IMG/VR virus record: IMGVR_UViG_3300043429_000266 | Coordinates: 1-59,341 of that record | Direction: 5' to 3' (one strand) | Origin: a virus | Taxonomy: Duplodnaviria; Caudoviricetes | DNA: 59,341 nucleotides | Shown: positions 3,770 through 56,932 of the stretch, piece after piece | Layout: each line of letters starts with the position of its first letter | Numbering within the stretch: the stretch's first letter is position 1 | The notes under the pieces: model-generated | The model's input: the letters and a program-made list of their open reading frames with translations, nothing else | Database searches by the model: none | What the model was told of the DNA's origin: nothing | Translations under genes and position numbers: made by a program

Positions 3770-4573
3770 ATGAAAAAGCTATTGATCATCATAGCAGCTT
3801 TTTGGCTCACAGCGTGTTCTCAAATTGACACGGGTAATATCGGCGTGGAGTCTACTCTCGGGCAGGTCAAAAAAGAGACCATGCCTCCAGGGGTGTACTT
3901 CACGATGTTCAAGCGCGTGACTGAGGTCTCCGCTAAAGAACTGCTGCTCAAGTTTGACGACATGAAGCCGCAGACGTCTGACAAGATCACCCTGTCTGAC
4001 TTGGACGTGGACATCTACATTCAAATTGACCCTAGCAAGGCGGCTGACATCATGACCCGCTGGCCAGGAGACGTGACGTATGAGAAAGGCGAAGACGGCG
4101 CTCGTATCGGTATGAACTACGTTACCCGTCAAGCTCGTGAGAACATCTACAACACAGTCACCAAGTACGGCTCCGCCACGGTTCACACCGAGCGTACCGC
4201 TATCGCGGCTGACGTGGTTAAGCAGTTGCAGGCCGACCTTGATGAGTCCGCCGGCAAAGGTTGGTTCTTTGTTCGCTCGGCTAACGTGCGTAACCTCGTG
4301 ACCGACCCTGCGCTTGAGAAGGCTATCATGGAAGCGGCCAACCGCCAGTTCCAGATCAACGCTAAGCAGAAGGAAGTAGAGCTGGCTAAGGCTGAAGCCG
4401 AACGCATGCGTGTTGAGGCACAAGGCGTGGCTGACGCGATTCGCATCAAAGCCTCGGCGGTGTCTGCTCAAGGCGGGCAGCAGTTTGTTGACCTTGAGGC
4501 CATCAAGAAGTGGGACGGCAAGTTACCGCAGACAATGTCAGGTAACGCCACCCCGTTCATACATGTGAAATAA
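3770..4573 (+). CDS. SPFH/Band-7 (prohibitin-like) lipoprotein
   Basis: Lipobox LTAC, GNIGVESTLG, coiled-coil AKAEAE...EAQG, IKKWDGKLP tail; start at ATG 3770. Confidence 0.88.
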   Translation: MKKLLIIIAAFWLTACSQIDTGNIGVESTLGQVKKETMPPGVYFTMFKRVTEVSAKELLLKFDDMKPQTSDKITLSDLDVDIYIQIDPSKAADIMTRWPGDVTYEKGEDGARIGMNYVTRQARENIYNTVTKYGSATVHTERTAIAADVVKQLQADLDESAGKGWFFVRSANVRNLVTDPALEKAIMEAANRQFQINAKQKEVELAKAEAERMRVEAQGVADAIRIKASAVSAQGGQQFVDLEAIKKWDGKLPQTMSGNATPFIHVK

Positions 4574-4575
4574 GT

Positions 4576-4854
4576 ATGGCTGTCTCAACTATCGGCAGCA
4601 CTAACGGCCCTTGGAGCGTAAGCAACTCCACAGTAAACGACATCTATGGTGGCCAACGCTTCTACGAAGAGCAAGAGCGCCGCTATCGTGAGGAGATGGA
4701 GCGCCAACGCCATGCAGCAATGCAAAACGCTTACTGCATCAACACTGACACTTACGTCGGTATTTCCGCACAAGAGATACGGCAAGAATCTAAGCCTGTA
4801 AAGGTGAAGCAGCCTGAATATCTCAACAACAAACTGTTATTACTGGAGATCTGA
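4576..4854 (+). CDS. Hypothetical protein
   Basis: ORF packed in the operon. Confidence 0.6.
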   Translation: MAVSTIGSTNGPWSVSNSTVNDIYGGQRFYEEQERRYREEMERQRHAAMQNAYCINTDTYVGISAQEIRQESKPVKVKQPEYLNNKLLLLEI

Positions 4855-4855
4855 A

Positions 4856-5137
4856 ATGAAATTGAAACCCTTTGCCGAAGTCATCGCCCTGTCAAAAGAG
4901 AAGCTGTCAGAAGCCCTCGCCCCCATCCGCGCCCGTAAGGTCAAGAGCCAAGCCGAGCTGGAGATGGCCAAACTCGACGACGAGCTGATTCGTTTGGAAG
5001 CCGAGGTGCATGAGATGTGCGCCAAGGAAGACATCAACTTTCCTAACCTACTGGACAAGCTGGACAAAGCGGCCCTCTTAGAGCGCCGTAAGGTGCAGTA
5101 CGAAAAAGTGCTGGCAGACTTGTTCCCTTCTAAATAA
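4856..5137 (+). CDS. Hypothetical coiled-coil protein
   Basis: GGAG RBS, heptad pattern. Confidence 0.7.
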   Translation: MKLKPFAEVIALSKEKLSEALAPIRARKVKSQAELEMAKLDDELIRLEAEVHEMCAKEDINFPNLLDKLDKAALLERRKVQYEKVLADLFPSK

Positions 5138-5294
5138 ACTTGTGCACCCCTTCCCAGCTGAGCCCGCCCACTCGGTAAAAGCCTGAATGCCATCGAAACT
5201 CTAGGGGTGCGCCTTCCCGCTAACGGAAGGTTCATGAGTAGGGGACGAATTCAGGAACGGGCAACCCCGATTTCATAACTAAGAAAGACACAAC

Positions 5295-5744
5295 ATGGCG
5301 ACCAATTTCCGACGCACCGCTGACTGGCTCAAAGCCTGCGGTAAGAACCCTTCGGCGGCCACGGCTTCCCTGCAGATCGGCTGCGACATAGAAGAAACAG
5401 TAGAGTTCTTAGAGCTTCTAGACCTTGATGAGATAGGTGACATACACCTAATGAGAACCGCTATTTACAACCTCAATGTCATAGCGAAAAAGTTGAAAAA
5501 GCTAGAGACTGTCGCTTGTATCTCGGATGAGAACCGCATCGAGGCGCTTGACGCGCTCTGCGACCGCGAGGTTACGGGTAACGGCGTGGCTTACTTGCTC
5601 GGGTTCAACAAAGAAGACGCAGACCTCGAAGTGCTGCGCAGTAATGACGCTAAGCTCGTGGACGGCAAACCAGTCATCCTCGAGGGTGGCAAAATCGGCA
5701 AACCGGCGGGCTGGACACCCCCTAACCTGAAAGGCTTCGCGTAA
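5295..5744 (+). CDS. MazG-like / PRA-PH all-alpha NTP pyrophosphohydrolase
   Basis: IEETVEF and ALDALCD acidic motifs, then VLRSNDAK...GGKIGKPAGWTPPNL. Confidence 0.8.
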   Translation: MATNFRRTADWLKACGKNPSAATASLQIGCDIEETVEFLELLDLDEIGDIHLMRTAIYNLNVIAKKLKKLETVACISDENRIEALDALCDREVTGNGVAYLLGFNKEDADLEVLRSNDAKLVDGKPVILEGGKIGKPAGWTPPNLKGFA

Positions 5745-5745
5745 C

Positions 5746-6600
5746 ATGGCAGCAATACCTAAGAGCCCTGAGCAGCAAATCATCGACCGGATGTACGAGT
5801 CGTACGAGGTAGCTGAGCATCAAAGTAACGAGGAGCGCGGCGGTGTCTACCTAGGTAGGCTCGGCGCTTCTAGCATCGGCAATGAGTGCATCCGTAGTAT
5901 CTGGCTCGACTGGCGCGGCTACGCTCGTAAGCGGTTCGGCGGTCGCATGTTGCGGTTGTTCGGCACCGGCCACTTGCAGGAAGATCGCGTTGTAGCAGAT
6001 TTGAAGGCCGCCGGTCTGCAGGTGTTTGAGAAGGACGCAGACGGCAAGCAGTTTGAGTTCTTAGACCCCACCGGTCATCTCATCTGCAAGGTCGACGGCG
6101 TGATTAAAGGTGTGCCCGAGAGCGCCGAAAAGCCGCACAATCTTGAAATCAAGACCCACAACCAGACCAGCTTTAACGCAGTGGTGAAGCACGGTGTTGA
6201 GAAGCACAAGCCGATGCACTATGTGCAGATGCAGGTCGGTATGTGGCTCGGCGGGTTCACCCGTTCGCTCTACGTGTCGCTCTGCAAGAACGACGAGCAA
6301 TATGACGTGCAACGTGTGCGCACTGACCGTAAGGTGCAGAAAGGTATCGAGCAGAAGGTCATCAAGCTGGTAGAAGCCCGCATGCGCCCCGCCGGTATCA
6401 GCGACGACAAGACGAGCTTCACCTGCAAGTTCTGTGACATGGCCGATGTGTGCTACGGCGATGCTGAACCCTTGCGCCACTGCCGGACTTGTGTGAATTG
6501 CGTCCCGACTGAGAACGGCACTTGGACGTGTGAGCTGAAAGGCGAGCATCTTGACATCAACCAACAGCGCGCAGGCTGTACACATTATGAGGTCTTATGA
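5746..6600 (+). CDS. Cas4-like PD-(D/E)xK exonuclease
   Basis: LGASSIGNEC, GHLQE, VDG...LEIKT, YVQMQ and CKFCDMADVC Fe-S cysteines. Confidence 0.82.
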   Translation: MAAIPKSPEQQIIDRMYESYEVAEHQSNEERGGVYLGRLGASSIGNECIRSIWLDWRGYARKRFGGRMLRLFGTGHLQEDRVVADLKAAGLQVFEKDADGKQFEFLDPTGHLICKVDGVIKGVPESAEKPHNLEIKTHNQTSFNAVVKHGVEKHKPMHYVQMQVGMWLGGFTRSLYVSLCKNDEQYDVQRVRTDRKVQKGIEQKVIKLVEARMRPAGISDDKTSFTCKFCDMADVCYGDAEPLRHCRTCVNCVPTENGTWTCELKGEHLDINQQRAGCTHYEVL

Positions 6601-6887
6601 AAACCCCACACAAACATGCTGAACTCATCAAGGCTTGGGCTGATGGGGCAGAGATTCAATTAAAACTGAATGCGGTACAATGGGGGGATTGTGTAGACCC
6701 CTATTGGAACCCTGACCTCGAATACCGCATCAAGCCTGAGCCAAAGCCTGATGTTGTTCGTTGGTGCTGGGCCACTGGCAGGATGGGTGAAAGAGAAGAC
6801 CATTTCGGTGAAAACGGAAGCGCCAATCTTAAAATCACATTCGACGGTGAGACCGGTAAATTAAAATCAGCAGAGGTGCTCCAATGA
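6597..6887 (+). CDS. Phage hypothetical protein
   Basis: HAELIKAWADGAEIQ...EYRIKP pattern; overlapping start and stop codons. Confidence 0.7.
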   Translation: MKTPHKHAELIKAWADGAEIQLKLNAVQWGDCVDPYWNPDLEYRIKPEPKPDVVRWCWATGRMGEREDHFGENGSANLKITFDGETGKLKSAEVLQ

Positions 6888-7360
6888 TCACTATCGGAAT
6901 TGACCCAGGACTCACAGGCGCTATCGGTGTGCTCAGAAGTGGCGTTTTCGTGGCCGTAGAGGACATGCCGACCGTTGCCAAGGGCTCGGGTAGTGTGAAG
7001 CGCGAAGTTGACCCCGCAGGGCTGTTTTCGCTGCTTCGTTCGCATGTGCCGCCGGTGGACGCAGTCAGCGTTGTGCTTGAGCGCGTGAACGCCATGCCAG
7101 GACAGGGTGTGAGTTCGGTGTTCAGCCTTGGCGACTCGTTCGGTACGGCGCGAGCCGTCATCGCGGCCCTCGGCTGGGAGCTACACTACGTAGCGCCGGT
7201 GACTTGGAAAAAGAGCTTCGGCCTCGCCTCTGACAAGGAGTTGAGCCGCGCCCTCGCAGTCCGAACCTTCCCTACCGCGCCGCTCAACTTGAAAAAACAC
7301 AGCGACCGTGCTGAGTCCCTGCTCATGGCTAGGTGGCTTTACAACACGAGGTTCAAATGA
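6884..7360 (+). CDS. RuvC-like Holliday junction resolvase
   Basis: IGIDPGLTGA, VVLERV, PVTWKK and DRAESLL motifs. Confidence 0.88.
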   Translation: MITIGIDPGLTGAIGVLRSGVFVAVEDMPTVAKGSGSVKREVDPAGLFSLLRSHVPPVDAVSVVLERVNAMPGQGVSSVFSLGDSFGTARAVIAALGWELHYVAPVTWKKSFGLASDKELSRALAVRTFPTAPLNLKKHSDRAESLLMARWLYNTRFK

Positions 7361-7581
7361 AAAAGCTCAAAGAAATGACTGACAAAGACTTTGATGAGGC
7401 GCTCGGCGTAACTGGGGAAATTGAAGCAGATGAGGGTAAAACATGCCCCGTATGCAACAACCCTGACGTGCCAGTCGTGACTACGCGAGTCAAAGGTAAT
7501 GAGGAAGTCGCCTTCGCGACCCGTGAGTACCGCTGTGACTGTTGTGACTGGCGGAGCGCGAGTTGGGAGGAAGAGGTATGA
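7357..7581 (+). CDS. Small zinc-ribbon protein
   Basis: CPVC...CDCC; ATG at 7357 overlaps the upstream stop. Confidence 0.6.
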   Translation: MKKLKEMTDKDFDEALGVTGEIEADEGKTCPVCNNPDVPVVTTRVKGNEEVAFATREYRCDCCDWRSASWEEEV

Positions 7582-7856
7582 GTTTGTCAACTTACGATCA
7601 TGAGAAAGGATGTTTTGTGCTCAAAGACACACGCCCACCGGCCAACGCTTTTGAATGGCGTCGGTACAACGAAGAAGAGGCGGCCCGTAACGGCGGCCTC
7701 AACGTCAAGCAGATGAACATCGAAGCCAGTAAGGGTAAAGGCGTAACGGCCTACCTTGAAAAGCGCCGCGAGACTAAACCCTCACACGGCACCTTCTTCG
7801 GTATGTCTGACAAAGAAGCCTCACCCCGTGCGGTGGGTAAACTGGTTCGTAAATGA
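7578..7856 (+). CDS. Hypothetical protein
   Basis: GAGG RBS, ATGA coupling. Confidence 0.55.
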   Translation: MSLSTYDHEKGCFVLKDTRPPANAFEWRRYNEEEAARNGGLNVKQMNIEASKGKGVTAYLEKRRETKPSHGTFFGMSDKEASPRAVGKLVRK

Positions 7857-7973
7857 CCAAGCTACCCCGCCTACCTAGTCAAGTGGTCTTGTTAGGCTCA
7901 AAGGGGTACACCCCGAAACAGATGCGCGAATATGCGCTCAAAGCAATTGAAACCTACAAACAGGAGAATCAAA

Positions 7974-8213
7974 ATGAAAAAGTTAGCAATCCTAGCGTTA
8001 TTGTTGAGCATGGTTGGCTGCTCGTCGACGAACAGCACTCAGGAACTAGTCATGGATAAGCGCCTTCGCCCGATGTCTCGTAATGAGACCATCGTAGCTG
8101 TGCGTGAGTGTGAGACTAACGGGCTGCGCGCGGTGATGATCTACGGTAAGCGTGAAATCAACGGCTACAGCACTGAAGTCGTGATTGAAGTCACCTGCGC
8201 CCCTAAGTGGTGA
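7974..8213 (+). CDS. Small lipoprotein
   Basis: MKKLAILALLLSMVGC lipobox; AGGAG RBS. Confidence 0.7.
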   Translation: MKKLAILALLLSMVGCSSTNSTQELVMDKRLRPMSRNETIVAVRECETNGLRAVMIYGKREINGYSTEVVIEVTCAPKW

Positions 8214-8217
8214 TAAC

Positions 8218-8628
8218 ATGGGAGTAGCACAACCCCGCCGAGTTAGCATGCAAACTGCTAAGAACCCCGTGGCTCGCGCCTTCGCACAAAAAGGCTTGCG
8301 CTCTGACATGGTTGATCAGAAGATCAAGCTCTACATGACCGAAGACGGAGAGCCCTGCGCGGACTTTTGCGCCGGTATCGGGCTCACCCTTTCGGCTATG
8401 ATCCGAGCAGCCGAGCTAGACCGCAAGGTGGGTAAGAATCACCTACTGACGCGCATAGCTCGGGGTGGGGCTTCGGCTTGTGAGCAGATGGTCAAATCGG
8501 ACTCGTTCGACCGCGACAATCTGGTCTCACTTGACAAGGCGCTTGACGCTATTGTTGACCTAAACATGCGACTCAGCGCCGAGGCGGTTAACCAAGGCTG
8601 GCGCGAAGCCCTCACCGGCAAACTCTAA
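8218..8628 (+). CDS. Hypothetical protein
   Basis: ORF in the operon; start uncertain. Confidence 0.6.
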   Translation: MGVAQPRRVSMQTAKNPVARAFAQKGLRSDMVDQKIKLYMTEDGEPCADFCAGIGLTLSAMIRAAELDRKVGKNHLLTRIARGGASACEQMVKSDSFDRDNLVSLDKALDAIVDLNMRLSAEAVNQGWREALTGKL

Positions 8629-8828
8629 TGCCGTGGGGTTATATTCGCAAACTACTAGGCTCAGGGCTCCACTGGGGTAAGACTCAGGAGGAGCTTCAAG
8701 CCGCTATTGCTCAGGCCGAACAGGACGGTATGTCTAAGGCCGCCGAGCATATTCGAATCATCTTGCGGCTACGCAACAAGGTGATGATGGAAAAAGAAAA
8801 CCCCGCACAAGGCGGGGCTGTAAAGTGA
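8628..8828 (+). CDS. Hypothetical protein
   Basis: TAATG coupling; last gene of the + strand block. Confidence 0.55.
   Translation: MPWGYIRKLLGSGLHWGKTQEELQAAIAQAEQDGMSKAAEHIRIILRLRNKVMMEKENPAQGGAVK
8791..8819 (-). terminator. Intrinsic terminator of the late (- strand) operon
   Basis: CCCCGC/GCGGGG stem followed on - by TTTTCTTTTT. Confidence 0.75.
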
Positions 8829-8856
8829 CACCTGCAAAAGTGTAGGTGTTATTTTA
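8828..8856 (+). terminator. Intrinsic terminator of the + strand operon
   Basis: ACACCTGCA-AAAG-TGTAGGTGT followed by TATTTT at the point of convergence. Confidence 0.65.
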
Positions 8857-10774
8857 CTTCTTTTTTGATGTCGGCCTCGATGTCAGCCTCAATGTCGGGG
8901 CCGGATATCGGGGCCGCTTCGCTTTCAAGCTGTACGTCTTTTTCCATGTCCGCCTGAGGAGCCGAGCCCTCGGGTGATGGGAAAATAGCCGTCGCAGTGC
9001 CGGTGGTGCCTGCGCCCTCAACAGCTGAAGCGCGAGCGGCCTTAGGTATTGCGGCTGCAGCTTGTTCGTCAAGCATCTTAACAACTGCGGCAACTTCGTG
9101 CGGGTCTTTTGACATGAGCATGTCGGCCAACTTAGCCGAAGTCTTCTCAGTCATCTGCCCTTTGCGCAGGCCGCTAACCACGGCGTTGGCGAGCGAACTC
9201 TTCCAGCCGCCCGTAATAGCGCCCATCATCGCATCACCAATACCTGAGCCGTCTTCAAGGCTCTCACGCATTTGCATACGCTTACCCGTGGGGCTACCGC
9301 CGAGGATCTTGCTTGACTGGTTGAACAGTTGGGCCTCACGCTCGAGGGCGTTCTTGAACAACTCAAACTGAGCAGGGTTGTCAAACAACGGCTGCAGCTT
9401 GGCTTGCATCTCGGGTGAACCAATCAGGCGTTGAGCAGCGTTAAAGTTGCCCGACGGTTTCATGATCTTGTCATACAAATCACGCGCCACGCCCGTGCGG
9501 AACGCATGCTTCTCCGACTCGCCCATACCCGACACGAGCTTGATGACCTGCTCATGATCCATACGACCGAACTCGTTGATACCCTTGCGCATCGCGTCAG
9601 AGAGTTCAGCTCCACCGGCGTAGATGCCGCGCGCGAGTTCGTAGTCCGGAACGGCTTTGTCAAGGTCTTTCAGGAACTCGTTTTTCTTCTGAGTGTAGAC
9701 GCGACCGAGAGAGGTGGTCTTGCCGGTGATGGCGTCTGTTTGGCCTTCAATCAAAGAGTCCAGACCGCGCTTCACTTGGTCTAACACCTCAACCGTGGGT
9801 TTGCTCAAGTCAAGCTCGCGGCCCTCGGCCTTGAGTAGCTTGTCGGCTTCCTTCAAAGCCTGTTGGAACTGTGGCAGCTCCATGTACTTGAGCACCTTGG
9901 GGTCTGCGACCTCGCCGTACGAGTAGGCTTGTTGGTACGCTGGGCCTGCGAGGGTTTTCATTTCCTCTTGCAGCTTGGTCAAGTCGTCGTAGTAGTCTCC
10001 TGGCTTGAGGGCTTTGACGGTCTGCTGATGGGCGCGCTCACGCGAACCCAGCTTCTGCTCCATCAAGGTTTTCTCAATCTTACGCGCACCTGCGCCGGTG
10101 CGTTGAGCCACCGCTTCAGCTAGGTCGGCCAGCGCGGGGTTGGTGTTAGCAACTACGGACGGTACACCTATCGCTTTGTCTTGAGCCATTTTGGCTTGGA
10201 TTTGAGCAGTGGTGAGTTTGTCTTCAGCCATAGCTTGGGCCATCTTCTCAGCCGCTTTGCGCTCAACAAGAGCGTCAGTGGGGAAGAGACGCTCACGAAG
10301 CCAGCTCGAAGCGCCCTTAGTGCCGCGAACGGCCATCGGCACAGCCAAACCTAGGGTTGTACCCATTACGCCGCCGGTGAACGCGCCTGAGCCACGTTGG
10401 CCTTCTTCAGCCGAGCCTGCGCCGCTGATAGCGCCCGTGGTGCCGCCCGCGCCAGCGAGCTTGGCCCATGCGGGGATACGCGCCGCTGTGCGAGCCATAG
10501 CGCCCGAAACCTGAGCGGCACCAGCGGGGATGGCGGGTGGGTACATCATCATAGCCACGCCAGGAGCTGCGCCACCTGCGAACTCAGCCGTTCCGGTTGT
10601 GATGGGGTATTGTTGTGAGAACTCACCGTACTCGCTGCGGATCTTTTTCAAGTTGTCTTCATAGCTCTCGTTACCGAGCTTAGAGCGGAGCCATGCTTCG
10701 GCTTCGTCCCCCCAGCCCATACCGAGACCTTGACCAAACGCGGCCCGAGCGCCGCCAACTAATGGATCAGCCAT
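8849..10774 (-). CDS. Putative internal virion / DNA ejection protein
   Basis: Large helical protein with Gly/Ala-rich N-terminus at the end of a podovirus-type late operon. Confidence 0.65.
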   Translation of the reverse strand: MADPLVGGARAAFGQGLGMGWGDEAEAWLRSKLGNESYEDNLKKIRSEYGEFSQQYPITTGTAEFAGGAAPGVAMMMYPPAIPAGAAQVSGAMARTAARIPAWAKLAGAGGTTGAISGAGSAEEGQRGSGAFTGGVMGTTLGLAVPMAVRGTKGASSWLRERLFPTDALVERKAAEKMAQAMAEDKLTTAQIQAKMAQDKAIGVPSVVANTNPALADLAEAVAQRTGAGARKIEKTLMEQKLGSRERAHQQTVKALKPGDYYDDLTKLQEEMKTLAGPAYQQAYSYGEVADPKVLKYMELPQFQQALKEADKLLKAEGRELDLSKPTVEVLDQVKRGLDSLIEGQTDAITGKTTSLGRVYTQKKNEFLKDLDKAVPDYELARGIYAGGAELSDAMRKGINEFGRMDHEQVIKLVSGMGESEKHAFRTGVARDLYDKIMKPSGNFNAAQRLIGSPEMQAKLQPLFDNPAQFELFKNALEREAQLFNQSSKILGGSPTGKRMQMRESLEDGSGIGDAMMGAITGGWKSSLANAVVSGLRKGQMTEKTSAKLADMLMSKDPHEVAAVVKMLDEQAAAAIPKAARASAVEGAGTTGTATAIFPSPEGSAPQADMEKDVQLESEAAPISGPDIEADIEADIKKEVK

Positions 10775-12066: not shown

Positions 12067-12075
12067 CGTAGCTCC

Positions 12076-48743: not shown

Positions 48744-48745
48744 TT

Positions 48746-50473: not shown

Positions 50474-50529
50474 TTCAGGAAGTTGGTTCAAAAATACAAT
50501 GGAAATATTTTGGCGAGGGGGTTGTTTTG

Positions 50530-50554
50530 TTGAATTTTTTGAGGCAAAATTCAA
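50530..50554 (+). promoter_or_regulatory. Inverted repeat / rightward early promoter region
   Basis: TTGAATTTT-7 nt-AAAATTCAA in an AT-rich divergent gap. Confidence 0.5.
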
Positions 50555-50607
50555 TACGTTGGTTCAGCAATGAATGAACAATGAATAACTTAATAACTGG
50601 AGTAACT

Positions 50608-51162: not shown

Positions 51163-51163
51163 C

Positions 51164-51427: not shown

Positions 51428-51530
51428 GTAACTGGCCCTTCCCCCCGCTCACCGGCCCCGTGCCTTGGACTAACAAACAGAAGAGCGACTACGCTCGTCA
51501 GCAACGCGAACAGCAAGAGGAGTCACCGTT

Positions 51531-52247
51531 ATGAGTAAGCAAACCCGAGTCCGCTGGACTGCTGAAGAGCGCACGTTGATCGTGCAACGCATGGTTCAAC
51601 TGTTGAACAAATCCGGTAGAAATTATTCAAAAGCCGGTTTGGCATTATGTGCTCAAGAAGTGCTCCCTGCTAATCGCCGCCGTAAGATCTTCACCCCTAA
51701 AGAACTCAAAGACATGAACGCCAAGGCTCACGCCTTAGCAGCTGAAGCAATCAAGCCGATGATCCGTGAGGCTGAGGCCGCCGTGGTTGAGCATGCGGTC
51801 ATTCCGCAGCGTGACGAGCTGACAACCCTGCTTGAGTCGTTGATTGACAAGATCGCTGATAAGGTGGCCGAGCGCCTCGCAGCGCAGCTCCAAGTGCACG
51901 TCAACACAACGACCACAACACATAGCGAGCACCGCCCGCGCCACAACCCTGAGCCACCTTGCAACGCTCCCCGTGAGCCTAAGGTCGGTGTGCTCATCTT
52001 GGGTATGCAACCTCATCAGGGTAACATCCTCAAGCAGGAGTTCCCGATGCTTGACATCACCTGTTACGACTCTGACGAGGCCCGCACCAAGCAGGTCATC
52101 ATGCGCAAGCACACCATCGGTATGACTCGCTTCCTGAGCCATCAAGTTGAAGACCGCTACCGCAAGTGCCCTCGCTATCACCGCCACAGCGCCGGTACAT
52201 CCGAGCTGAAGACCCTGTTGAAACAAATCGCCGAAGGAACCGTATGA
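51531..52247 (+). CDS. Hypothetical protein (helical N-terminus, alpha/beta C-terminus)
   Basis: RWTAEE start; GAGGAG RBS. Confidence 0.7.
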   Translation: MSKQTRVRWTAEERTLIVQRMVQLLNKSGRNYSKAGLALCAQEVLPANRRRKIFTPKELKDMNAKAHALAAEAIKPMIREAEAAVVEHAVIPQRDELTTLLESLIDKIADKVAERLAAQLQVHVNTTTTTHSEHRPRHNPEPPCNAPREPKVGVLILGMQPHQGNILKQEFPMLDITCYDSDEARTKQVIMRKHTIGMTRFLSHQVEDRYRKCPRYHRHSAGTSELKTLLKQIAEGTV

Positions 52248-52546
52248 CTACCGACCACATTGAGGCCCGAGGCCGCACTATGTACTGCACCCGCTGTGAG
52301 TGCGCGAACGAAGTGAACATGCCTGCCAAAATAGATGAGATCATTTATCAGATGGACAGTTTCCGTGATGCGCACAAAGACTGCAAGCCCCGAGCTATCG
52401 AGGCTCAGATGTCTGAGTACATCAAGGGGTTTGACGCTGGTTGCGAGCACCTGATGCGTGAGATAGAATTATTCATGAAGTCTAAGCCGCTTCCTCCTTC
52501 AAATATTGCCGAACTAGTGGCGCATTTACGCAAAGGTCTCAAATGA
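52244..52546 (+). CDS. Small Zn-binding hypothetical protein
   Basis: CTRC...HKDC; ATGA coupling. Confidence 0.6.
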   Translation: MTTDHIEARGRTMYCTRCECANEVNMPAKIDEIIYQMDSFRDAHKDCKPRAIEAQMSEYIKGFDAGCEHLMREIELFMKSKPLPPSNIAELVAHLRKGLK

Positions 52547-53505
52547 CACAATCAATTTTCCCCGTCCTCGCACTTGACCGCGCTCAGGTGCAGTGGGAGC
52601 AACACCTAGGCGAACTCACCCCATGGGAAAACCGTGACGGTGTCTGGTTCAAGCGTGAGGACTACTTCGCGCCGCTCGGCTACGGCGGCCCTAACGGGTC
52701 TAAGATGCGCCAGCTCATCTGGTACATGAACCGTTACCGTGAGGGTAAGACTCACGTGCTGACCGGCGCGAGCATTCAGAGCCCCCAGCTCAGTATGTCC
52801 GCCATCGTCGGTGCGCACTTCGGCCTCAAGTGCCGTCAGGTCGTCTACAGCAAGCCACATACGGTGCTGACGCATGAGAACCCGAGTATCTCAGCCGGTT
52901 TCGGCGCTGTGTTTGAGTACGTGAACGGGCCGTACAACCCCATCATCCAACGGCGCGTGGTTGACCTGACTCAGCCCACCTCGTTGGTGGTTGAGTACGG
53001 TATCACGGTACCGCATAAGACGCGCCCCGCTGAGGATGTGTTGAAGTTTCATGAGGTCGGCGCTAACCAGATTCGCAACCTGCCCGCCGAGGTGAAGACA
53101 CTGATCGTACCTGCCGGCTCATGCAACTCGCTTTGCAGCATGTTGTTGGGTCTCAGCCGAGACTCCAAGAACCTAAACCGCCTGCGCATCGTGGGTATCG
53201 GCCCCGACAAGCGTAAGTGGGTGCGTGAGCGTATGGTGATTATGGGGGTTGACATTGACCGCCTGCCGTTCGTTACCGAGTACCACAGCCTGCACGATAC
53301 CGGCTTCAGCAAGTACAGCGACAAGTTCAAAGGTGAGAACCATTCCGGTATCAATTTTCACCCCACGTATGAGGCCAAAATTTGGCGTTACCTGCGTGAG
53401 TCGGCCTCGCTTTACGCTGATGACAAGACTGGGTTCTGGATCGTCGGTAGCGCGCCCAACCCCGCAATCGTTAAGCCGTTCTACACTAACCAAGGAGCCG
53501 CCTGA
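52543..53505 (+). CDS. PLP-dependent fold-type II enzyme, putative DNA-amino acid decarboxylase
   Basis: FKREDY...GGPNGSKMR (PLP lysine), PAGSCNS, HPTYEAK resemble the ACC deaminase/D-Cys desulfhydrase family; sits in the hypermodification cluster. Confidence 0.8.
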   Translation: MTQSIFPVLALDRAQVQWEQHLGELTPWENRDGVWFKREDYFAPLGYGGPNGSKMRQLIWYMNRYREGKTHVLTGASIQSPQLSMSAIVGAHFGLKCRQVVYSKPHTVLTHENPSISAGFGAVFEYVNGPYNPIIQRRVVDLTQPTSLVVEYGITVPHKTRPAEDVLKFHEVGANQIRNLPAEVKTLIVPAGSCNSLCSMLLGLSRDSKNLNRLRIVGIGPDKRKWVRERMVIMGVDIDRLPFVTEYHSLHDTGFSKYSDKFKGENHSGINFHPTYEAKIWRYLRESASLYADDKTGFWIVGSAPNPAIVKPFYTNQGAA

Positions 53506-54244
53506 TGTTTAACCGCATTTACACAATCATCAAGCGCCGAGTCAAGCGCAAGCTGACCGTTGCTATCTACAAGAAACCTAAGATCGTGCGCGCCTCAACG
53601 CTTGAGCGCGCCCAGCATTACGTTGACAACCACGGCTGCCCAACCACCCGCTGCTTCCCTCGCACCACTGACGATGCGTTCCGCCACTTGGGTGACGGCA
53701 TGGAGACGTTCTTCCCCCCTGAGCAACGCTGGCAAGACAAAGTGATGTTTGCCGTTGGCGTTTGCTGCTGGATCGCCCTTGGCATTTTTTACTGGAGATA
53801 CCTATGAACAAATTCTTTAAAGACGTGGCTAACCTGCTCCACTGGCTCTTCCCCTTCATCTGCACTTGCGCGTTTGCTTACGTTTTCGGCGCGTTCATCG
53901 AGTGGTCACGCGACCCCGCTGACTGGACTTGGCAGGCTCGTTTCTGCACCGTGATCTTCGGCGTGTCGCTCGGGTTTGCGGTTGACCGCCGCCTTGAGAT
54001 GGCTGTGAGGGACTGAGCAATGGAATGGCTTGATAAAACAGTTACCGTCGGTGATCTTCTGTCGATCGCCCTTGGTTGGTTCCTATTCGACTTGATCGTA
54101 ATAGGTCACAAAATATACAAGAACGCGAAAAGTAGGATGTAAGCATGTTAGAAAACGTAACCCTGATGGTGCTGTTGATGGTGCTCGGCGCAAGCCTCAC
54201 AGTCGCAGTGCTCATCGGTTTTATTTACTGGATGGAGATGCAGA
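53505..54244 (+). CDS. Four small membrane-protein ORFs (53505-53807, 53804-54016 and two shorter)
   Basis: Each has a hydrophobic TM stretch; they separate the modification genes. Confidence 0.5.
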
Positions 54245-55249
54245 ATGATTGACTACCGTTTCAAGGAGTACAGAGAAGAATACTTCTCCGCGCTTTACAA
54301 GATGAACCTAGAGTACGGGGTCATGCCTGGACTCGTGTACCTCTACATGCCCGCTCTGGCTAAGGCCAACGGCTGGGGTGCTGATGAGAAACTCTGGTTC
54401 GCGTTCCTGAACGGCCTGACGCAGAACCCTATCACCTCGCTGCGCATGTTCCAACGCTTGTCTGAGTGCCCGCCCGCCGGAGCCCCTCTCAAGGGCTTTG
54501 AGGAGTGGTTCAACGCGAACTGGGAGACCCTGCAGTTTGACACTGACCGCCGATATCAGAAGAAAGACACCTTGGTAGCTATAAAGGCTTACGCCAAAGC
54601 GGTTGAACACTTCGGCTCGCAAGAAGCCATGCTGCGTAAAGACACCCCGTATTGTGATTTATGGTCTAGGGTGCGCGGTATGTATAGTAGTTTCGGACGC
54701 TTGTCTGCGTTCAGCTACCTCGAGTACGTGAACATCATGGGTTTCGGCAACGACTGCGATGACTTGATCTTCAGCGACAAGTCGGGCAGCAAGTCACACC
54801 GCAACGGTATGTTGTTCCTCATCGGCAAAGACGACTTGGTGTGGGACAAACGCCTTGACAACGGTCAAGACGGCAACTACAATAACTTCAAGATGATGTG
54901 TGGCTTTTTAGCCGCCTCAGCTGATGTTCATATTGAGAAGTTCAAAGCCCTGAACCCTGAAGTGCCTAACGTGGGTCGGTTCACCTTTGAGTCTAACCTT
55001 TGTACGTTCAAGAATCACTTCTTCGGTCGTCGCTATCCAGGAGTCTACGCCGACATGGCGCAAGACCGTATTGAGTGGGCCGACGAGCGCGGCCTTCAAG
55101 AGCACACTCAAGTGTTCAAGGGTATGCGCGAGGCGCTCCTGCCTGAGTGGTTGCGTCGTGAGTGTTCGCCGGCAAAGTTCAATGTCAAGTCGGCAGCCTC
55201 ATTGTTCCCTGAAACGGGTGCCCCTTATCGTGCGGAGTACTTCCTATGA
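54245..55249 (+). CDS. Amino acid:DNA transferase (aGPT-Pplase2 family)
   Basis: WFAFL, DTDRRY, FGRLSAFSYLEY, SHRNG, ESNLCTFK, RYPGVY; gene context. Confidence 0.8.
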   Translation: MIDYRFKEYREEYFSALYKMNLEYGVMPGLVYLYMPALAKANGWGADEKLWFAFLNGLTQNPITSLRMFQRLSECPPAGAPLKGFEEWFNANWETLQFDTDRRYQKKDTLVAIKAYAKAVEHFGSQEAMLRKDTPYCDLWSRVRGMYSSFGRLSAFSYLEYVNIMGFGNDCDDLIFSDKSGSKSHRNGMLFLIGKDDLVWDKRLDNGQDGNYNNFKMMCGFLAASADVHIEKFKALNPEVPNVGRFTFESNLCTFKNHFFGRRYPGVYADMAQDRIEWADERGLQEHTQVFKGMREALLPEWLRRECSPAKFNVKSAASLFPETGAPYRAEYFL

Positions 55250-55440
55250 GAAACCGAACAATGACCGAACGCTCACGTCAAGTGGCGATCAAGCGCCTGA
55301 GCCGCTACCCTCTCGGCGGCGACAACCTCGGCTGGCACAAACACTACGCCGAGGTTCACAACAAGACGCAGACCTTTGACTCTGCTCATCTCGCGATGTG
55401 GTATTTGCTGCTACATCTCGCACTTGGGGAACAACAATGA
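55246..55440 (+). CDS. Hypothetical protein
   Basis: ATGA-coupled on both sides. Confidence 0.55.
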   Translation: MRNRTMTERSRQVAIKRLSRYPLGGDNLGWHKHYAEVHNKTQTFDSAHLAMWYLLLHLALGEQQ

Positions 55441-56018
55441 CAAATCAAATCGTCAACATTCGCGGCTGCAACGGCTCGGGCAAGACTACAATCGTGCGCC
55501 GGTTCCTTGACAAGCTGCCGACTCAGGCGCTGGGCGGTAAGCCGAGCAAGCCCGCCGGTTATCGCGTCGACGCAACATCATGGGGTATCATGCTGCCCGT
55601 GTTCATCGTGGGTTCTTATGAGAACACCTGCGGCGGCACTGACGGAATCAGCACTCAAGAGGAGATCGCCGAACGCACCACGAAGGCGCACGGTCACGGC
55701 CATGTGCTTGTTGAGGGGCTGCTGATGAGCAAGTCCAGCGCGGGCGGTCACGTAGCTCCTATCCTCAAAGACCACGGCGCTATCTTCGGGTTCCTCGATA
55801 CACCTTGGCAAATGTGCCTTGACAGGGTTCTTTTGCGCCGTCAGGCTGCGGGTAATATCAAACCCTTTGACCCTGAGAAGACCATGCGCTCCGCCTACGA
55901 ACAATGTCACCGCTCGGCTGAGTTGTTGACTCAAGCCGGTGGGTATGATGTCCGCTGGATCGACCACCTGAACGCCGTCGGAACCGTCGTGCAATATTTG
56001 AAAGATGCTGAAGTATGA
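55437..56018 (+). CDS. P-loop kinase of the 5-hmdU pathway
   Basis: IVNIRGCNGSGKTT, GSYENTCGGTD, VLVEG, lid CLDRVLLRR; start at ATG 55437. Confidence 0.8.
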   Translation: MTNQIVNIRGCNGSGKTTIVRRFLDKLPTQALGGKPSKPAGYRVDATSWGIMLPVFIVGSYENTCGGTDGISTQEEIAERTTKAHGHGHVLVEGLLMSKSSAGGHVAPILKDHGAIFGFLDTPWQMCLDRVLLRRQAAGNIKPFDPEKTMRSAYEQCHRSAELLTQAGGYDVRWIDHLNAVGTVVQYLKDAEV

Positions 56019-56932
56019 TTGATGTCTGCCCGTACAAGCGCCCTGACGAGCGCACCGTGACCTCTCTTGAGGGGTTGCTGTACTTCGTCTGGGAGCGTGA
56101 GGCTATCCGAGTCGCCAAAGAGGGCGGCTGGCAGGTTAATGCGCTCACCAATGACCCTGTGCTCAAGAAGTACAAGTTCACCAATATTCGCCGCCGTGAC
56201 GATCGTGTCTCTCAGTGGATCATTGAGCACTTGATCAAGCCTAACGCTGACCATGAAGATTTGTGGTTTACGTTGCTCATCGCTCGTATCATCAACTGGC
56301 CCCCGACCTTGCAGGCGTTACTGCACGAGAAAGTGATCCCGTGTGCGCCTGAAGACTTTGATGCTGAGTTGTTCTCAGTGACGATTGAGGCGCTCAAGGC
56401 TAATGGCACTAAAGTGTACTCAGGTGCTTACATGGTCTACCCGACCAAGATGGACGTGGGGGGTAACAAGTCTTCCGCTATTGCTAAGCACATCTTAGGC
56501 GGGGTGATTGAGCGCGCTGAAGACATCTGGTCTTCTCTCAACCACCCTGATTCTGATCCTTCGGTTGAACGGTTCGTAGAGTCTCTTTCTAAGTGCTTCG
56601 GCCTGAGCACCTTTATGGCCGGTCAAGTGGCTGCTGATTTGACTTATGGCGACATTGAGTTTGAAGACATTTACAGTTACGCCCCCATCGGCCCAGGAAG
56701 CTCTCGCGGCTTGAACTACTTGAAGGGCCGCCGCCCGTTTGCGAGCTGGGGTCAAGGTGACTTCAACAACGCGCTCATCGAGATTCATCACGAAATTGAA
56801 GAGCATCTTGACATCAAAGACATGACGCTACATGATGTGCAAAATGTTATGTGCGAATTCAGCAAGTATTGCCGCTGTGTCCTGAATGAGGGCGTCCCTA
56901 AAACTATCTACAAACCCGAGGAGTTGTTCTAA
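56015..56932 (+). CDS. 5-hmdU DNA kinase helical-domain protein (aGPT-Pplase1 family)
   Basis: ERE.IR...DPVLKKYKFTNIRRRDDRVSQW, SGAYM, FMAGQVAADL, GPGSSRGL, QNVMCEFSKY. Confidence 0.85.
   Translation: MIDVCPYKRPDERTVTSLEGLLYFVWEREAIRVAKEGGWQVNALTNDPVLKKYKFTNIRRRDDRVSQWIIEHLIKPNADHEDLWFTLLIARIINWPPTLQALLHEKVIPCAPEDFDAELFSVTIEALKANGTKVYSGAYMVYPTKMDVGGNKSSAIAKHILGGVIERAEDIWSSLNHPDSDPSVERFVESLSKCFGLSTFMAGQVAADLTYGDIEFEDIYSYAPIGPGSSRGLNYLKGRRPFASWGQGDFNNALIEIHHEIEEHLDIKDMTLHDVQNVMCEFSKYCRCVLNEGVPKTIYKPEELF

What the first reader, a model, noticed from the sequence alone, without database searches (positions are those of the whole stretch)
3880..56700. CCNGG is purged genome-wide and tolerated almost only as TCCWGG/CCWGGA
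Seen in a manual scan (counts approximate): about 45 CCWGG sites, all with a 5' T or 3' A flank, and only one CCSGG (near 24281). Nearly all are Pro-Gly codon pairs, where CCNGG is unavoidable. These are encoded as CCA-GGA, CCT-GGA or T-CCW-GGN (for example near 6905, 7097, 14480, 29007, 32615, 40610, 47990, 55037, 56693), while CCC/CCG-GGN is essentially unused despite the GC-rich genome. Inference: there is strong pressure from a CCNGG-recognising host system (EcoRII/Dcm/ScrFI-like), and a flanking thymine gives immunity. That would fit a modified T next to the site blocking recognition, so codon choice may have co-evolved with base modification. No phage methyltransferase is visible. An alternative is an intrinsic flank preference of the host enzyme.
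Basis: partly seen in the sequence, partly recalled or inferred. Interest (0 to 1): 0.85.

Follow-up and report, generated by a model that had tools for sequence, protein, structure and literature searches.

The report
Thymine-flank shield of purged restriction sites
This phage has removed nearly every CCNGG restriction-type site and keeps it only at unavoidable Pro-Gly codon pairs, always written with a thymine directly in front, probably because its chemically modified thymines partly shield the neighbouring site from host nucleases.

Summary
The window is a complete 59,341-bp phage genome. It holds 46 CCWGG sites, all with a 5' T or 3' A, and 1 CCSGG. Synonymous-codon shuffles expect 132 and 64.

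Of the 47 sites, 44 are in-frame Pro-Gly pairs, and 43 of the 44 pairs are T-flanked CCW (7.6 expected). The T flank is a lesser evil, not immunity. Outside Pro-Gly, T-flanked sites are also purged (2 against 44 expected), and Pro-Gly itself is depleted in the proteins (44 against 68).

The modification link is supported indirectly:
- The genome carries a 5-hmdU kinase / amino-acid:DNA transferase cluster. No methyltransferase was found in 60 of 78 proteins scanned.
- GCCGGC obeys the same rule here: T-flanked 16 against 14 expected, others 0 against 15.
- Other purged G/C-starting palindromes obey it in cluster-bearing relatives and in M6, PhiW-14, Pam3 and Librie.
- Across genomes, T-flanked copies survived in 38 of 110 cases with the cluster. 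The figure was 10 of 177 for A, C or G flanks, and 3 of 35 in eight phages without the cluster.
- Retention is almost limited to palindromes starting with G or C, matching the published TG/TC context.

Caveats: no chemistry was done, the host is unknown, and T7 and CRP-902 show partial look-alikes. This scan has noted the same footprint on other DNA.

The parts
3887..56697 (.). All 46 CCWGG sites of the genome. Each has a 5' T or 3' A, and 43 are Pro-Gly codon pairs. Site starts: 3887, 4064, 6905, 7097, 9999, 10560, 10976, 11387, 12009, 12695, 14479, 15252, 16099, 16642, 17173, 17742, 21733, 22220, 22450, 23964, 26505, 28877, 29008, 29332, 32555, 32615, 32624, 33282, 33772, 34759, 36570, 37530, 38836, 40610, 40700, 41861, 42061, 43526, 44222, 46536, 47358, 47991, 49131, 54326, 55037, 56693.
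   Evidence: list with flanks; frames and codons; shuffles.
24281..24285 (-). The only CCSGG site (coding strand TCC CCC GGC, Ser-Pro-Gly) and the only Pro-Gly pair that breaks the rule. It lies in a tail-fibre-like gene of atypical composition.
   Evidence: Gene 24139-25395 has GC3 0.44 and a Peptidase_S74 domain.
12009..12013 (-). CCWGG outside a Pro-Gly pair (frame 2, CTC CTG GCA); TCCTGG type.
43526..43530 (-). CCWGG outside a Pro-Gly pair (frame 2, TTC CTG GGC); TCCTGG type.
15252..15256 (.). The only intergenic CCWGG (CCAGGA).
4250..58358 (.). All 16 GCCGGC sites, every one with a 5' T or 3' A, and 12 of them written TTGCCGGC/GCCGGCAA. Site starts: 4250, 11503, 18206, 19867, 27890, 28268, 32758, 34149, 36521, 44733, 49187, 50077, 50409, 53113, 55168, 58353.
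   Evidence: list. T-flanked 16 against 14 expected, not T-flanked 0 against 15; position-specific flanks.
52543..53505 (+). Putative PLP-dependent enzyme of the hypermodification cluster.
   Evidence: PF00291 PALP, E 1.3e-4, 21.9 bits, below the 35-bit cut-off. This is a weak hit.
54245..55249 (+). Amino acid:DNA transferase homologue.
   Evidence: PF18724 ADDT, E 2.9e-18, 66.9 bits (cut-off 26.2).
55398..56018 (+). P-loop protein next to the kinase helical-domain gene; candidate kinase domain.
   Evidence: only weak AAA_22/AAA_17 hits (E 1.5e-3 and 4.3e-3). The role is inferred from its position.
56015..56932 (+). 5-hmdU DNA kinase helical-domain protein.
   Evidence: PF18723 HMUDK_hel, E 6.8e-39, 134.4 bits.
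56933..57928 (+). Thymidylate-synthase homologue, presumed dUMP hydroxymethylase.
   Evidence: PF00303, E 5.8e-22. The hydroxymethylase role is inferred from the gene neighbourhood and from PMC8989533.
58323..58814 (+). HD-domain 5'-deoxynucleotidase-like protein; presumed to clear dTTP/dUTP.
   Evidence: PF12917 at 6.8e-13 and PF13023 at 4.4e-10. The role is inferred.

Best explanation
This is a virulent-type phage that replaces thymine with 5-hydroxymethyluracil. It then converts part of it, in T-before-G/C steps, into a bulky amino-acid-derived base. The enzymes are a 5-hmdU DNA kinase, an amino-acid:DNA transferase and probably a PLP enzyme.

Its hosts carry restriction enzymes against many short palindromes, including CCWGG and CCSGG (or CCNGG). 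The modification cannot protect sites that contain no T. So the phage has deleted those sites by synonymous change.

CCNGG cannot be deleted at Pro-Gly, because CCN-GGN always contains it. There the phage picks the least cleavable spelling. It uses a central W, which puts a T in a TG step. It adds a second T directly 5' of the site on one strand, a T in a TC step, preferably giving TCCTGG. It gets this by ending the preceding codon in T or by using the otherwise rare GGA.

The modified T next to the outer C:G pair hinders recognition or cleavage of that half-site. Protection is incomplete for CCWGG, so avoidable copies are still removed and Pro-Gly itself is thinned out. Protection is essentially complete for GCCGGC.

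Shown: the counts, the codon choices, the gene cluster and the comparative pattern. Inferred: that T is modified, that the modification is TS-specific in this phage, and that host restriction enzymes are the selective agent.
For: 1. Purge and flank rule.
- Searches give the counts listed under the observation check.

2. Either flank is enough.
- Of the 18 Pro-Gly pairs whose preceding codon does not end in T, 17 use GGA. GGA makes up 7% of Gly codons elsewhere.
- The 26 pairs with a 5' T use mostly GGC or GGT.
- A 3' T never rescues a site (VCCWGGB = 0).

3. The gene cluster is present.
- No methyltransferase domain was found in 60 of 78 proteins scanned.

4. The same rule holds for a second, unrelated site in this genome.
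- GCCGGC: T-flanked 16 against 14 expected, others 0 against 15.

5. Relatives were taken as whole genomes.
- Pro-Gly written as T-flanked CCW: G006 38/38, G007 37/38, G008 36/38, G009 41/45, G001 24/27.
- G003 keeps CCSGG freely (124 sites) yet has VCCWGGB at 4 against 62 expected and T-flanked CCWGG at 31 against 45.
- GGCC survives only as TGGCCA in G001, G003, G012 and G014, and almost only so in G009 (33 of 36 strand flanks are T).

6. G002 is a relative without the cluster.
- It has the same structural module but a different replication module.
- It shows no purge and no flank preference.

7. Unrelated phages carrying 5-hmdU DNA kinase homologues show the same footprint. M6 and PhiW-14 have chemically characterised hypermodified thymines; Pam3 and Librie are known here only from their genes. 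V = not T-flanked, T = T-flanked, observed/expected.
- M6: GCCGGC V 0/36, T 5/15; GGCGCC V 0/29, T 3/15.
- PhiW-14: GCCGGC V 0/15, T 9/11.
- Pam3: GGCGCC V 2/29, T 21/18; GAGCTC V 0/19, T 9/12; GGGCCC V 0/14, T 5/10.
- Librie: CCGCGG V 0/15, T 9/7.

8. Systematic test. Cases are palindromes whose copies without flank X are at least 90% purged.
- X-flanked copies were retained in 38/110 cases for X = T.
- For other flanks: A 4/57, C 4/60, G 2/60 (16 cluster-bearing genomes).
- For T in 8 genomes without the cluster: 3/35.
- With 12 representative genomes: 29/77 against 3/35, Fisher p = 0.0014.

9. Retention depends on the first base of the palindrome.
- Palindromes beginning with G or C: 37/92. 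Beginning with A or T: 1/18 (p = 0.005).
- This is what a TG/TC-specific modification predicts.

10. Literature, read as passages or sections.
- PMC6449724, sections 9 and 10. Resistant sites hold TG/TC. The kinase probably prefers TS. A flanking T (tGCCGGC) may confer resistance. ViI DNA resists BstNI.
- PMC13458397. dapT sits at TG more than at TC, and that genome is fully resistant to BstNI.
Against: - No chemical or sequencing evidence shows that any T in this phage is modified. The PLP hit is below Pfam's cut-off.
- The host and its enzymes are unknown.
- T-flanked CCWGG is still strongly counter-selected here (2 against 44 expected).
- G010 carries the cluster yet purges CCWGG regardless of flank (T-flanked 2 against 40). 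G013 depletes T-flanked CCWGG more (10/68) than the rest (37/92).
- Many sites show no flank effect in this genome: GGWCC (T 5/43, V 2/43), GGCGCC, CGGCCG, CCGCGG and CCSGG. For TCGA the T-flanked copies are the more depleted (53/120 against 109/164).
- Librie shows the reverse pattern for GCCGGC (V 26/28, T 4/17).
- Look-alike patterns occur without the cluster. T7 CCGG is V 8/46, T 50/48. CRP-902 GGWCC is V 0/13, T 26/26, and CGWCG is V 0/27, T 15/27. CRP-902 has no hit to the kinase or the ThyA homologue but does have a DNA methyltransferase.
- The 16 cluster-bearing genomes are not independent. Twelve belong to one family.
- The preference for TCCTGG over TCCAGG is partly confounded by a general deficit of CTGGA.
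Confidence: 0.68

Rival explanations
1. The flank rule reflects the host enzymes themselves. Either one enzyme disfavours an unmodified T next to its site, or several enzymes with longer recognition sequences together cover every non-T flank. Modification plays no part.
For: - T7 has no T modification, yet its CCGG sites are V 8/46 against T 50/48.
- CRP-902 shows GGWCC V 0/13, T 26/26 and CGWCG V 0/27, T 15/27, with no hit to the kinase or the ThyA homologue.
- G010 and G013 carry the cluster but do not follow the CCWGG rule, so the outcome depends on the host enzyme.
Against: - The same rule holds for unrelated words: CCWGG, GCCGGC, GGCC, GCGCGC, GGCGCC, GGGCCC, GAGCTC, GACGTC and CCGG. It holds in five phage lineages with different hosts.
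- It is specific to T: 38/110 against 10/177 for the other three flank bases.
- It is limited to G/C-starting palindromes.
- One T on either strand is enough. GCCAGGA is kept although it contains GCCAGG. A union of forbidden longer words would not allow this.
- Phage 73 and phiKMV, which infect the same host species as M6, and MW202675 purge T-flanked copies as fully as the others (0 kept in 6, 8 and 7 cases).
Confidence: 0.15
2. T-flanked sites are protected by methylation. A host or phage methyltransferase with a longer site that includes the flanking T/A, for example one overlapping TCCWGG or TGCCGGC, would do this. Thymine modification would not be involved.
For: - CRP-902 shows T-flank retention and encodes a SAM-dependent DNA methyltransferase.
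Against: - No methyltransferase domain was found in 60 of 78 predicted proteins of this phage. The 18 not scanned are all under 100 aa.
- One methyltransferase would not cover CCWGG, GCCGGC, GGCC and the other words at once.
- The rule tracks the hypermodification cluster across lineages.
Confidence: 0.05
3. The pattern is a translational codon-pair preference or a mutational bias and has nothing to do with nucleases.
For: CAGGA is generally favoured over CTGGA in several family members, also outside CCWGG.
Against: - The constraint can be met on either side of the site: by the third base of the preceding codon or by the Gly codon. No codon-pair model predicts this.
- It applies on both strands and to the intergenic site.
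- G002 has near-identical structural proteins but no such preference: T-flanked CCW in 9 of its 76 Pro-Gly pairs.
Confidence: 0.03

Closest known systems
Restriction-site (short palindrome) avoidance in virulent phages
   Same: Many 4-6 bp palindromes are strongly under-represented relative to a codon-preserving null. The purged set differs between close relatives, as expected if hosts carry different restriction enzymes.
   Different: Here avoidance depends on the flanking base. A T directly 5' exempts or partly exempts the site. Where a site is forced by the protein sequence (Pro-Gly, and Trp-Pro in relatives), codon choice builds the T flank. The general concept of avoidance is recalled from textbook knowledge.
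TG/TC-context thymidine hypermodification that blocks Type II enzymes (M6, ViI, PhiW-14: PMC6449724; SH-Ab 15599: PMC13458397)
   Same: - The gene set has the same core as the published pathway: ThyA-like enzyme, 5-hmdU DNA kinase, amino-acid:DNA transferase, PLP-like enzyme.
- The published in vitro resistance of sites holding TG/TC includes CCWGG (BstNI).
- The authors' suggestion that a flanking T (tGCCGGC) can protect matches the footprint.
- M6 and PhiW-14 genomes show the same GCCGGC rule.
   Different: - Those papers report digests of virion DNA, not genome composition.
- The evolutionary footprint was not found in print. This covers the flank-conditional purge, the codon-pair choice and the dipeptide depletion.
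- Searches: one search gave 0 papers; some searches gave listings only, apart from the papers named here.
- Their supplementary tables of enzyme results could not be opened.
M6 (Gly + radical SAM + PLP) and ViI (Ser + PLP) hypermodification pathways (PMC8989533, PMC5889632)
   Same: The kinase, the transferase and a PLP-type enzyme lie next to a thymidylate-synthase homologue and an HD hydrolase. This is the arrangement described in the passages read.
   Different: - No radical SAM protein was seen among the 60 proteins scanned, so the layout is closer to ViI than to M6.
- The kinase helical domain and the P-loop lie in separate ORFs.
- Kinase identity to cultured phages is at most about 35%.
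- The final base is unknown.
Earlier notes of this scan on other phage genomes (e1-6098826, e1-5953868, e1-5739844, e1-5953881, e1-5685358)
   Same: They describe CCGG, CCWGG or AGCT surviving only next to T in phages predicted to modify thymine.
   Different: These are unchecked AI notes on other DNA. New in the present case: the Pro-Gly forcing argument, the either-flank conditional codon choice, the TCCTGG preference, the protein-level Pro-Gly depletion, and the controls across 24 genomes.

Membership tests
Restriction-site avoidance in phages | Short palindromes significantly under-represented against a null that keeps proteins and codon usage | tested here: met
   CCWGG 46/132, CCSGG 1/64, GGWCC 7/86, GGCGCC 0/28, CGGCCG 0/22, CCGCGG 0/21 and others, with z from -4 to -11.
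Restriction-site avoidance in phages | The purged set varies among relatives in a way attributable to different hosts | tested here: met
   four patterns for CCNGG. GGCC is purged in G001, G003, G008 and G009 but not in G000. GGWCC is purged in the G000 clade only.
Restriction-site avoidance in phages | A cognate host restriction enzyme exists | not testable with these tools
   The host is unknown. The nearest cultured phages have 45-47% TerL identity.
5-hmdU-derived thymidine hypermodification pathway | 5-hmdU DNA kinase | tested here: met
   PF18723, 134.4 bits, at 56015-56932, with an adjacent P-loop ORF (weak AAA hits only).
5-hmdU-derived thymidine hypermodification pathway | Amino acid:DNA transferase (aGPT-Pplase2) | tested here: met
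   PF18724, 66.9 bits, at 54245-55249.
5-hmdU-derived thymidine hypermodification pathway | dUMP hydroxymethylase that supplies 5-hmdU | tested here: inconclusive
   a thymidylate-synthase homologue (PF00303, E 5.8e-22). Hydroxymethylase and methylase activity cannot be told apart from this hit.
5-hmdU-derived thymidine hypermodification pathway | PLP-dependent tailoring enzyme | tested here: inconclusive
   PALP at 21.9 bits, below the 35-bit cut-off.
5-hmdU-derived thymidine hypermodification pathway | Non-canonical thymidine present in virion DNA | not testable with these tools
   This needs LC-MS or single-molecule sequencing of virion DNA.
TG/TC-context shielding by hypermodified T | Protection is tied to a T followed by G or C | tested here: met
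   T-flank retention in 37/92 G/C-starting palindromes against 1/18 A/T-starting (p = 0.005). This is a composition test only.
TG/TC-context shielding by hypermodified T | The effect is specific to T and to phages that carry the pathway | tested here: met
   T 38/110 against A 4/57, C 4/60 and G 2/60; controls T 3/35. The exceptions, T7 CCGG and CRP-902, are noted.
Self-protection by a phage DNA methyltransferase | A DNA methyltransferase gene in the phage | tested here: not met
   no methyltransferase family in 60 of 78 predicted proteins. The 18 not scanned are under 100 aa.
EcoRII/Dcm/ScrFI-like CCNGG system as the selective agent | One enzyme that recognises both CCWGG and CCSGG | tested here: inconclusive
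   The two purges separate in relatives. CCWGG only: G003 and G010. CCSGG only: loci L100 and L113. Two enzymes are therefore as likely as one.

The most novel reading that the evidence does not exclude
The genome sequence alone reads out the 'shadow' of a DNA hypermodification. A modified T in a T-G/C step shields the restriction site that begins at the next base, and shields nothing further away. The phage has rewritten its codon pairs (Pro-Gly as TCCTGG; Trp-Pro as TGGCCA in relatives) and has even thinned Pro-Gly out of its proteins to live inside that shadow.

If this is true, flank-conditional palindrome purges could be used on metagenomes for three things. They could identify T-modifying phages, infer their modification motif, and infer which restriction specificities their uncultured hosts carry. 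The strand-asymmetric TCCTGG preference would further imply that two modified T on one strand block CCWGG enzymes better than one on each strand.
Probability: 0.55. Interest if true: 0.72.

Novelty: new variant of a known kind. Interest (0 to 1): 0.62.

Why it matters
Partial thymidine hypermodification leaves T-free restriction sites exposed. How phages cope with that, and which T are modified, has been studied only by digesting DNA of a few cultured phages.

This footprint gives in vivo, evolutionary evidence for four points:
- A T next to a site can protect it.
- The protection is graded by enzyme.
- Site purging and base modification act as complementary strategies.
- Selection by nucleases can reach protein sequence, shown here as Pro-Gly depletion.

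It also offers a cheap, sequence-only marker for modification context and host restriction repertoire in uncultured phages. And it makes concrete predictions for cultured phages: every remaining GCCGGC, GGCGCC or GGGCCC site in M6, PhiW-14 and Pam3 should resist cleavage.

Tried and rejected
- A 7-deazaguanine (GA-motif) modification was considered as the cause of the CCWGG-A rule. It was dropped after Pfam showed a thymidine pathway and no queuosine-type genes among the proteins scanned.
- A nucleotide search for close named relatives found only short 72-74% matches. Protein searches gave nothing nearer than 45-47% TerL identity and about 35% kinase identity. The host therefore could not be named.
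- Pooling all residual sites of all avoided palindromes gave only a diluted T enrichment (G000: 146 against 99.7). The effect is site-specific, so this was replaced by the per-palindrome test.
- The TCCTGG preference was tested against a general pentamer bias. CTGGA is mildly depleted outside CCWGG too, for example 87/105 in G000 and 75/121 in G012. The preference is therefore reported as an observation with a caveat, not as settled.
- A family search with PF18723 on control records matched nothing anywhere, including the tool's own control genomes, so it carries little weight. The protein queries also found nothing in those records. The same kind of query had found the genes in relatives.
- Supplementary tables of PMC6449724 are closed. 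They would say how BstNI, ScrFI, NciI, NaeI and NgoMIV act on M6, ViI and PhiW-14 DNA.
- No structure prediction, complex prediction, read mapping or large protein-database search was run. None would bear on a compositional finding.

Full report
WHAT THE WINDOW IS. The window is the whole record, a 59,341-bp phage genome with 54.8% G+C. My own gene calls give 78 ORFs covering 91% of it. Pfam identifies:
- a terminase, a capsid protein, an SU10-type adaptor and tail-fibre modules;
- a primase-polymerase and a helicase;
- at 52.5-58.8 kb, a thymidine-hypermodification cluster.

The cluster holds a weak PLP-type hit, an amino-acid:DNA transferase (PF18724), a P-loop ORF, the 5-hmdU DNA kinase helical domain (PF18723), a thymidylate-synthase homologue and an HD hydrolase. 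No DNA methyltransferase family appeared in the 60 of 78 proteins scanned. The 18 left out are all under 100 aa. No cultured phage is close: TerL identity is at most 47% and kinase identity about 35%.

THE OBSERVATION. There are 46 CCWGG sites and one CCSGG. All 46 carry a 5' T or a 3' A, so no VCCWGGB exists. Forty-four of the 47 sites are in-frame Pro-Gly pairs, two are TC-CTG-G in frame 2 and one is intergenic.

Against 300 synonymous-codon shuffles:

| Class | Observed | Expected |
|---|---|---|
| CCWGG | 46 | 132 |
| CCSGG | 1 | 64 |
| VCCWGGB | 0 | 80 |
| Pro-Gly pairs as T-flanked CCW | 43 of 44 | 7.6 (maximum 16) |

Codon usage shows how the rule is met:
- Away from Gly, 55% of Pro codons are CCC or CCG. 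Before Gly, 43 of 44 are CCA or CCT.
- GGA is 7% of Gly codons elsewhere and 48% after Pro.
- Of the 18 pairs whose preceding codon does not end in T, 17 use GGA. The eighteenth is the CCC-GGC exception.
- Where the preceding codon ends in T, GGC and GGT dominate as usual.

So either flank is enough, and a T on the 3' side never rescues a site. The exception at 24281 lies in a tail-fibre-like gene with GC3 0.44, against 0.55-0.75 elsewhere. That suggests recent acquisition.

First, the T flank is not immunity. Outside Pro-Gly, T-flanked CCWGG is 2 against 43.9 expected. The Pro-Gly dipeptide itself is depleted: 44 against 68 expected from composition. Five relatives with the same purge show 27/61 to 45/78. 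Relatives without the full CCNGG purge (G002, G003, G010-G014) show 51/57 to 76/72.

Second, CCNGG is one of many purged palindromes. GGWCC, GGCGCC, CGGCCG, CCGCGG, AGCGCT, GAGCTC, AAGCTT and AACGTT are purged as well.

A REFINEMENT. The central base depends on which flank holds the T. With a 5' T the Pro codon is CCT (17 against 5 CCA). With a 3' A it is CCA (14 against 3 CCT). The word is therefore TCCTGG on one strand or the other in 31 single-flank pairs, against 8 of the TCCAGG type (Fisher p = 3e-4). This recurs in G006, G007, G008, G009 and G001. It is near absolute in the AT-rich relatives G012 (30:1) and G014 (29:0). CTGGA is somewhat depleted outside CCWGG too, so part of this may come from another constraint.

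RELATIVES. A large family of uncultured phages shares the terminase at 76-96% identity (216 confirmed stretches, 80 kept). Fifty-one loci carry the kinase. Four patterns appear across the 131 loci:
- CCSGG absent and CCWGG present only with a T flank. Forty-six loci have CCSGG at or below 0.1 per kb and at least 3 CCWGG. Together they hold 512 CCWGG, of which 55 are VCCWGGB, mostly in 7 loci.
- CCWGG absent and CCSGG kept.
- Intermediate.
- No purge.

Twelve complete relatives were fetched and analysed with their own gene calls and shuffles:
- Pro-Gly is T-flanked CCW in 38/38 (G006), 37/38 (G007), 36/38 (G008), 41/45 (G009) and 24/27 (G001).
- G003 is the most telling. CCSGG is free (124 sites), so Pro-Gly could always be written CCS-GGN. 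Yet VCCWGGB is 4 against 62 while T-flanked CCWGG is 31 against 45.
- G010 purges CCWGG whatever the flank.
- G013 depletes T-flanked copies more than the others.
- G002 has no hit to the kinase. It shares the structural module (capsid 96% identical) but has a RecT/YqaJ, ParB-methylase and D5-primase replication module instead. It shows no purge and no flank preference.

THE RULE IS GENERAL. In this genome GCCGGC occurs 16 times, always T-flanked (T-flanked expected 14, others 0 against 15). Twelve of the 16 are TTGCCGGC/GCCGGCAA. G006 and G007 repeat this.

In G001, G003, G012 and G014, GGCC survives only as TGGCCA, and almost only so in G009. T at position -1 accounts for 22/22, 37/38, 26/26, 38/38 and 33/36 strand flanks. 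I did not check the reading frame of these sites; Trp-Pro (TGG-CCN) is the one codon pair that forces TGGCC, so TGG-CCA is the likely spelling. GCGCGC, GGCGCC, CCGG and ACGT behave the same way in other members.

Unrelated phages carrying 5-hmdU DNA kinase homologues show the same footprint. M6 and PhiW-14 have chemically characterised hypermodified thymines; Pam3 and Librie are known here only from their genes. V = not T-flanked, T = T-flanked, observed/expected:

| Phage | Site | V | T |
|---|---|---|---|
| M6 | GCCGGC | 0/36 | 5/15 |
| M6 | GGCGCC | 0/29 | 3/15 |
| PhiW-14 | GCCGGC | 0/15 | 9/11 |
| Pam3 | GGCGCC | 2/29 | 21/18 |
| Pam3 | GAGCTC | 0/19 | 9/12 |
| Pam3 | GGGCCC | 0/14 | 5/10 |
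| Pam3 | GACGTC | 0/15 | 5/10 |
| Librie | CCGCGG | 0/15 | 9/7 |
| Librie | CCCGGG | 1/12 | 7/11 |

CONTROLS. The test took every 4-mer and 6-mer palindrome and every 5-mer with a W or S centre. A case counts when copies lacking flank X are at least 90% purged (expected at least 8) and X-flanked copies are expected at least 5 times. I then asked whether the X-flanked copies are kept at 30% or more of expectation.
- In 16 cluster-bearing genomes the answer is yes in 38/110 cases for T, against 4/57 (A), 4/60 (C) and 2/60 (G).
- In eight genomes without the cluster it is 3/35 for T.
- Phage 73, phiKMV and MW202675 give 0 or 1 kept case each in this wider test. In the earlier runs they gave 0 kept of 6, 8 and 7.
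- With one genome per sub-lineage, the figures are 29/77 against 3/35 (p = 0.0014).
- Retention is almost confined to palindromes that begin with G or C: 37/92 against 1/18 for A/T-starting (p = 0.005). That is the prediction if only T in TG/TC steps is modified.

EVIDENCE AGAINST, STATED IN FULL.
- GGWCC, GGCGCC, CGGCCG, CCGCGG and CCSGG in this genome are purged whatever the flank. T-flanked TCGA is the more depleted class.
- Librie's GCCGGC is reversed.
- T7 keeps CCGG mainly with T flanks (V 8/46, T 50/48).
- CRP-902 keeps GGWCC and CGWCG only with T flanks, although no kinase or ThyA homologue was found in it. It does encode a DNA methyltransferase.
- Twelve of the 16 positive genomes belong to one family.
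- Nothing here shows the chemistry.

LITERATURE.
- Flodman et al. 2019 (PMC6449724; sections 9 and 10 and passages read). Resistant sites in M6, ViI and PhiW-14 mostly hold TG or TC. The kinase probably prefers these steps. PhiW-14 resists NaeI, NgoMIV, ApaI, PspOMI and NotI, perhaps through flanking TG such as tGCCGGC. ViI resists BstNI.
- A 2026 paper on phage SH-Ab 15599 (PMC13458397; passages). Its modification sits at TG more than at TC, and the DNA is fully resistant to BstNI.
- Lee et al. 2018 (PMC5889632; passages). It states that the sequence motifs were then unknown.
- Lee et al. 2021 (PMC8989533; passages). It gives the enzymology.
- I found no paper describing the genomic footprint. 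One search returned 0 papers, and the listings showed none.
- This scan's own notes describe the same kind of footprint on other DNA. These are unchecked AI notes and were not used as evidence.

MECHANISM.
- Thymine is replaced by 5-hmdU during replication. T in TG/TC steps is then phosphorylated and given an amino-acid-derived side chain in the major groove. This is inferred from the cluster and the cited papers.
- Sites without T are unprotected and have been deleted.
- At Pro-Gly the phage uses CCW, so a central T sits in a TG step. It adds a T in a TC step at position -1.
- From memory, not from any call here: EcoRII, PspGI, SsoII and Ecl18kI cut immediately 5' of the first C, so position -1 borders the scissile bond. 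NciI and BcnI cut CC/SGG inside the site. This would fit a flank-sensitive CCWGG pressure together with a flank-insensitive CCSGG pressure. It remains a conjecture.
- A block on one strand would leave at most a nick, which is repairable. That explains why one T is enough for CCWGG and GCCGGC.

VERDICT. The finding is a new variant of known restriction avoidance, coupled to base modification, and it recurs in this scan.

Noticed in passing
window 22928-25395 (- strand): Two adjacent tail-fibre-like genes with Peptidase_S74 chaperone domains have GC3 0.44, against 0.55-0.75 in the other long genes. They hold the genome's only CCSGG. This suggests a recently acquired module that has not yet been fully purged.
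   Followed up: partly
window, all 44 Pro-Gly pairs; also G006-G009, G001, G012, G014: The central base of CCWGG follows the flank: CCT with a 5' T, CCA with a 3' A. The kept word is therefore TCCTGG, with both T on one strand (31 against 8 here; 30:1 and 29:0 in the AT-rich relatives). CTGGA is also mildly depleted outside CCWGG, so the cause is not settled.
   Followed up: partly
window, proteome-wide: The Pro-Gly dipeptide is depleted (44 against 68 expected from composition). The same holds in the five relatives with the same purge (ratios 0.44-0.58). It does not hold in relatives without the full CCNGG purge (G002, G003, G010-G014; ratios 0.82-1.06).
   Followed up: yes
window, 16 GCCGGC sites (4250 ... 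58353): T is enriched at position -2 as well as -1 (17 of 32 strand flanks, against 25% expected). Twelve of the 16 sites read TTGCCGGC/GCCGGCAA, and 13 of 16 are in frame 0.
   Followed up: partly
G002 (loci L135-L137): This is a mosaic relative. Its structural genes are up to 96% identical to the window's. Its replication module is replaced by YqaJ, RecT, DUF2303, a ParB-N6_N4 DNA methylase and a D5-type primase. It has no hit to the 5-hmdU kinase and shows no palindrome purge at all.
   Followed up: partly
G013 (loci L162-L164): This relative carries the transferase gene, yet T-flanked CCWGG is more depleted (10 against 68) than the rest (37 against 92). This is the opposite of the window and is unexplained.
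   Followed up: no
Roseobacter phage CRP-902 (OQ401624.1; L187-L189, L193): GGWCC survives only with T flanks (V 0/13, T 26/26), and so does CGWCG (V 0/27, T 15/27). No kinase or ThyA homologue was found. The phage encodes a SAM-dependent DNA methyltransferase (gp10).
   Followed up: partly
Escherichia phage T7 (NC_001604; L182-L183): CCGG is kept almost only with a T flank (V 8/46, T 50/48) in a phage with no thymine modification. It may reflect several enterobacterial enzymes with longer CCGG-containing sites. It is a caution for flank-rule arguments.
   Followed up: no
Microbacterium phage Librie (ON970570.1; L173): GCCGGC shows the reverse flank effect (V 26/28, T 4/17), while CCGCGG and CCCGGG follow the T-flank rule. 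The phage carries glycosyltransferases next to its kinase-like gene.
   Followed up: no
window and M6 (L168): CGWCG is about half depleted in both (99 against 198 here; 96 against 240 in M6). In the window, T-flanked TCGA is more depleted (53/120) than the rest (109/164).
   Followed up: no
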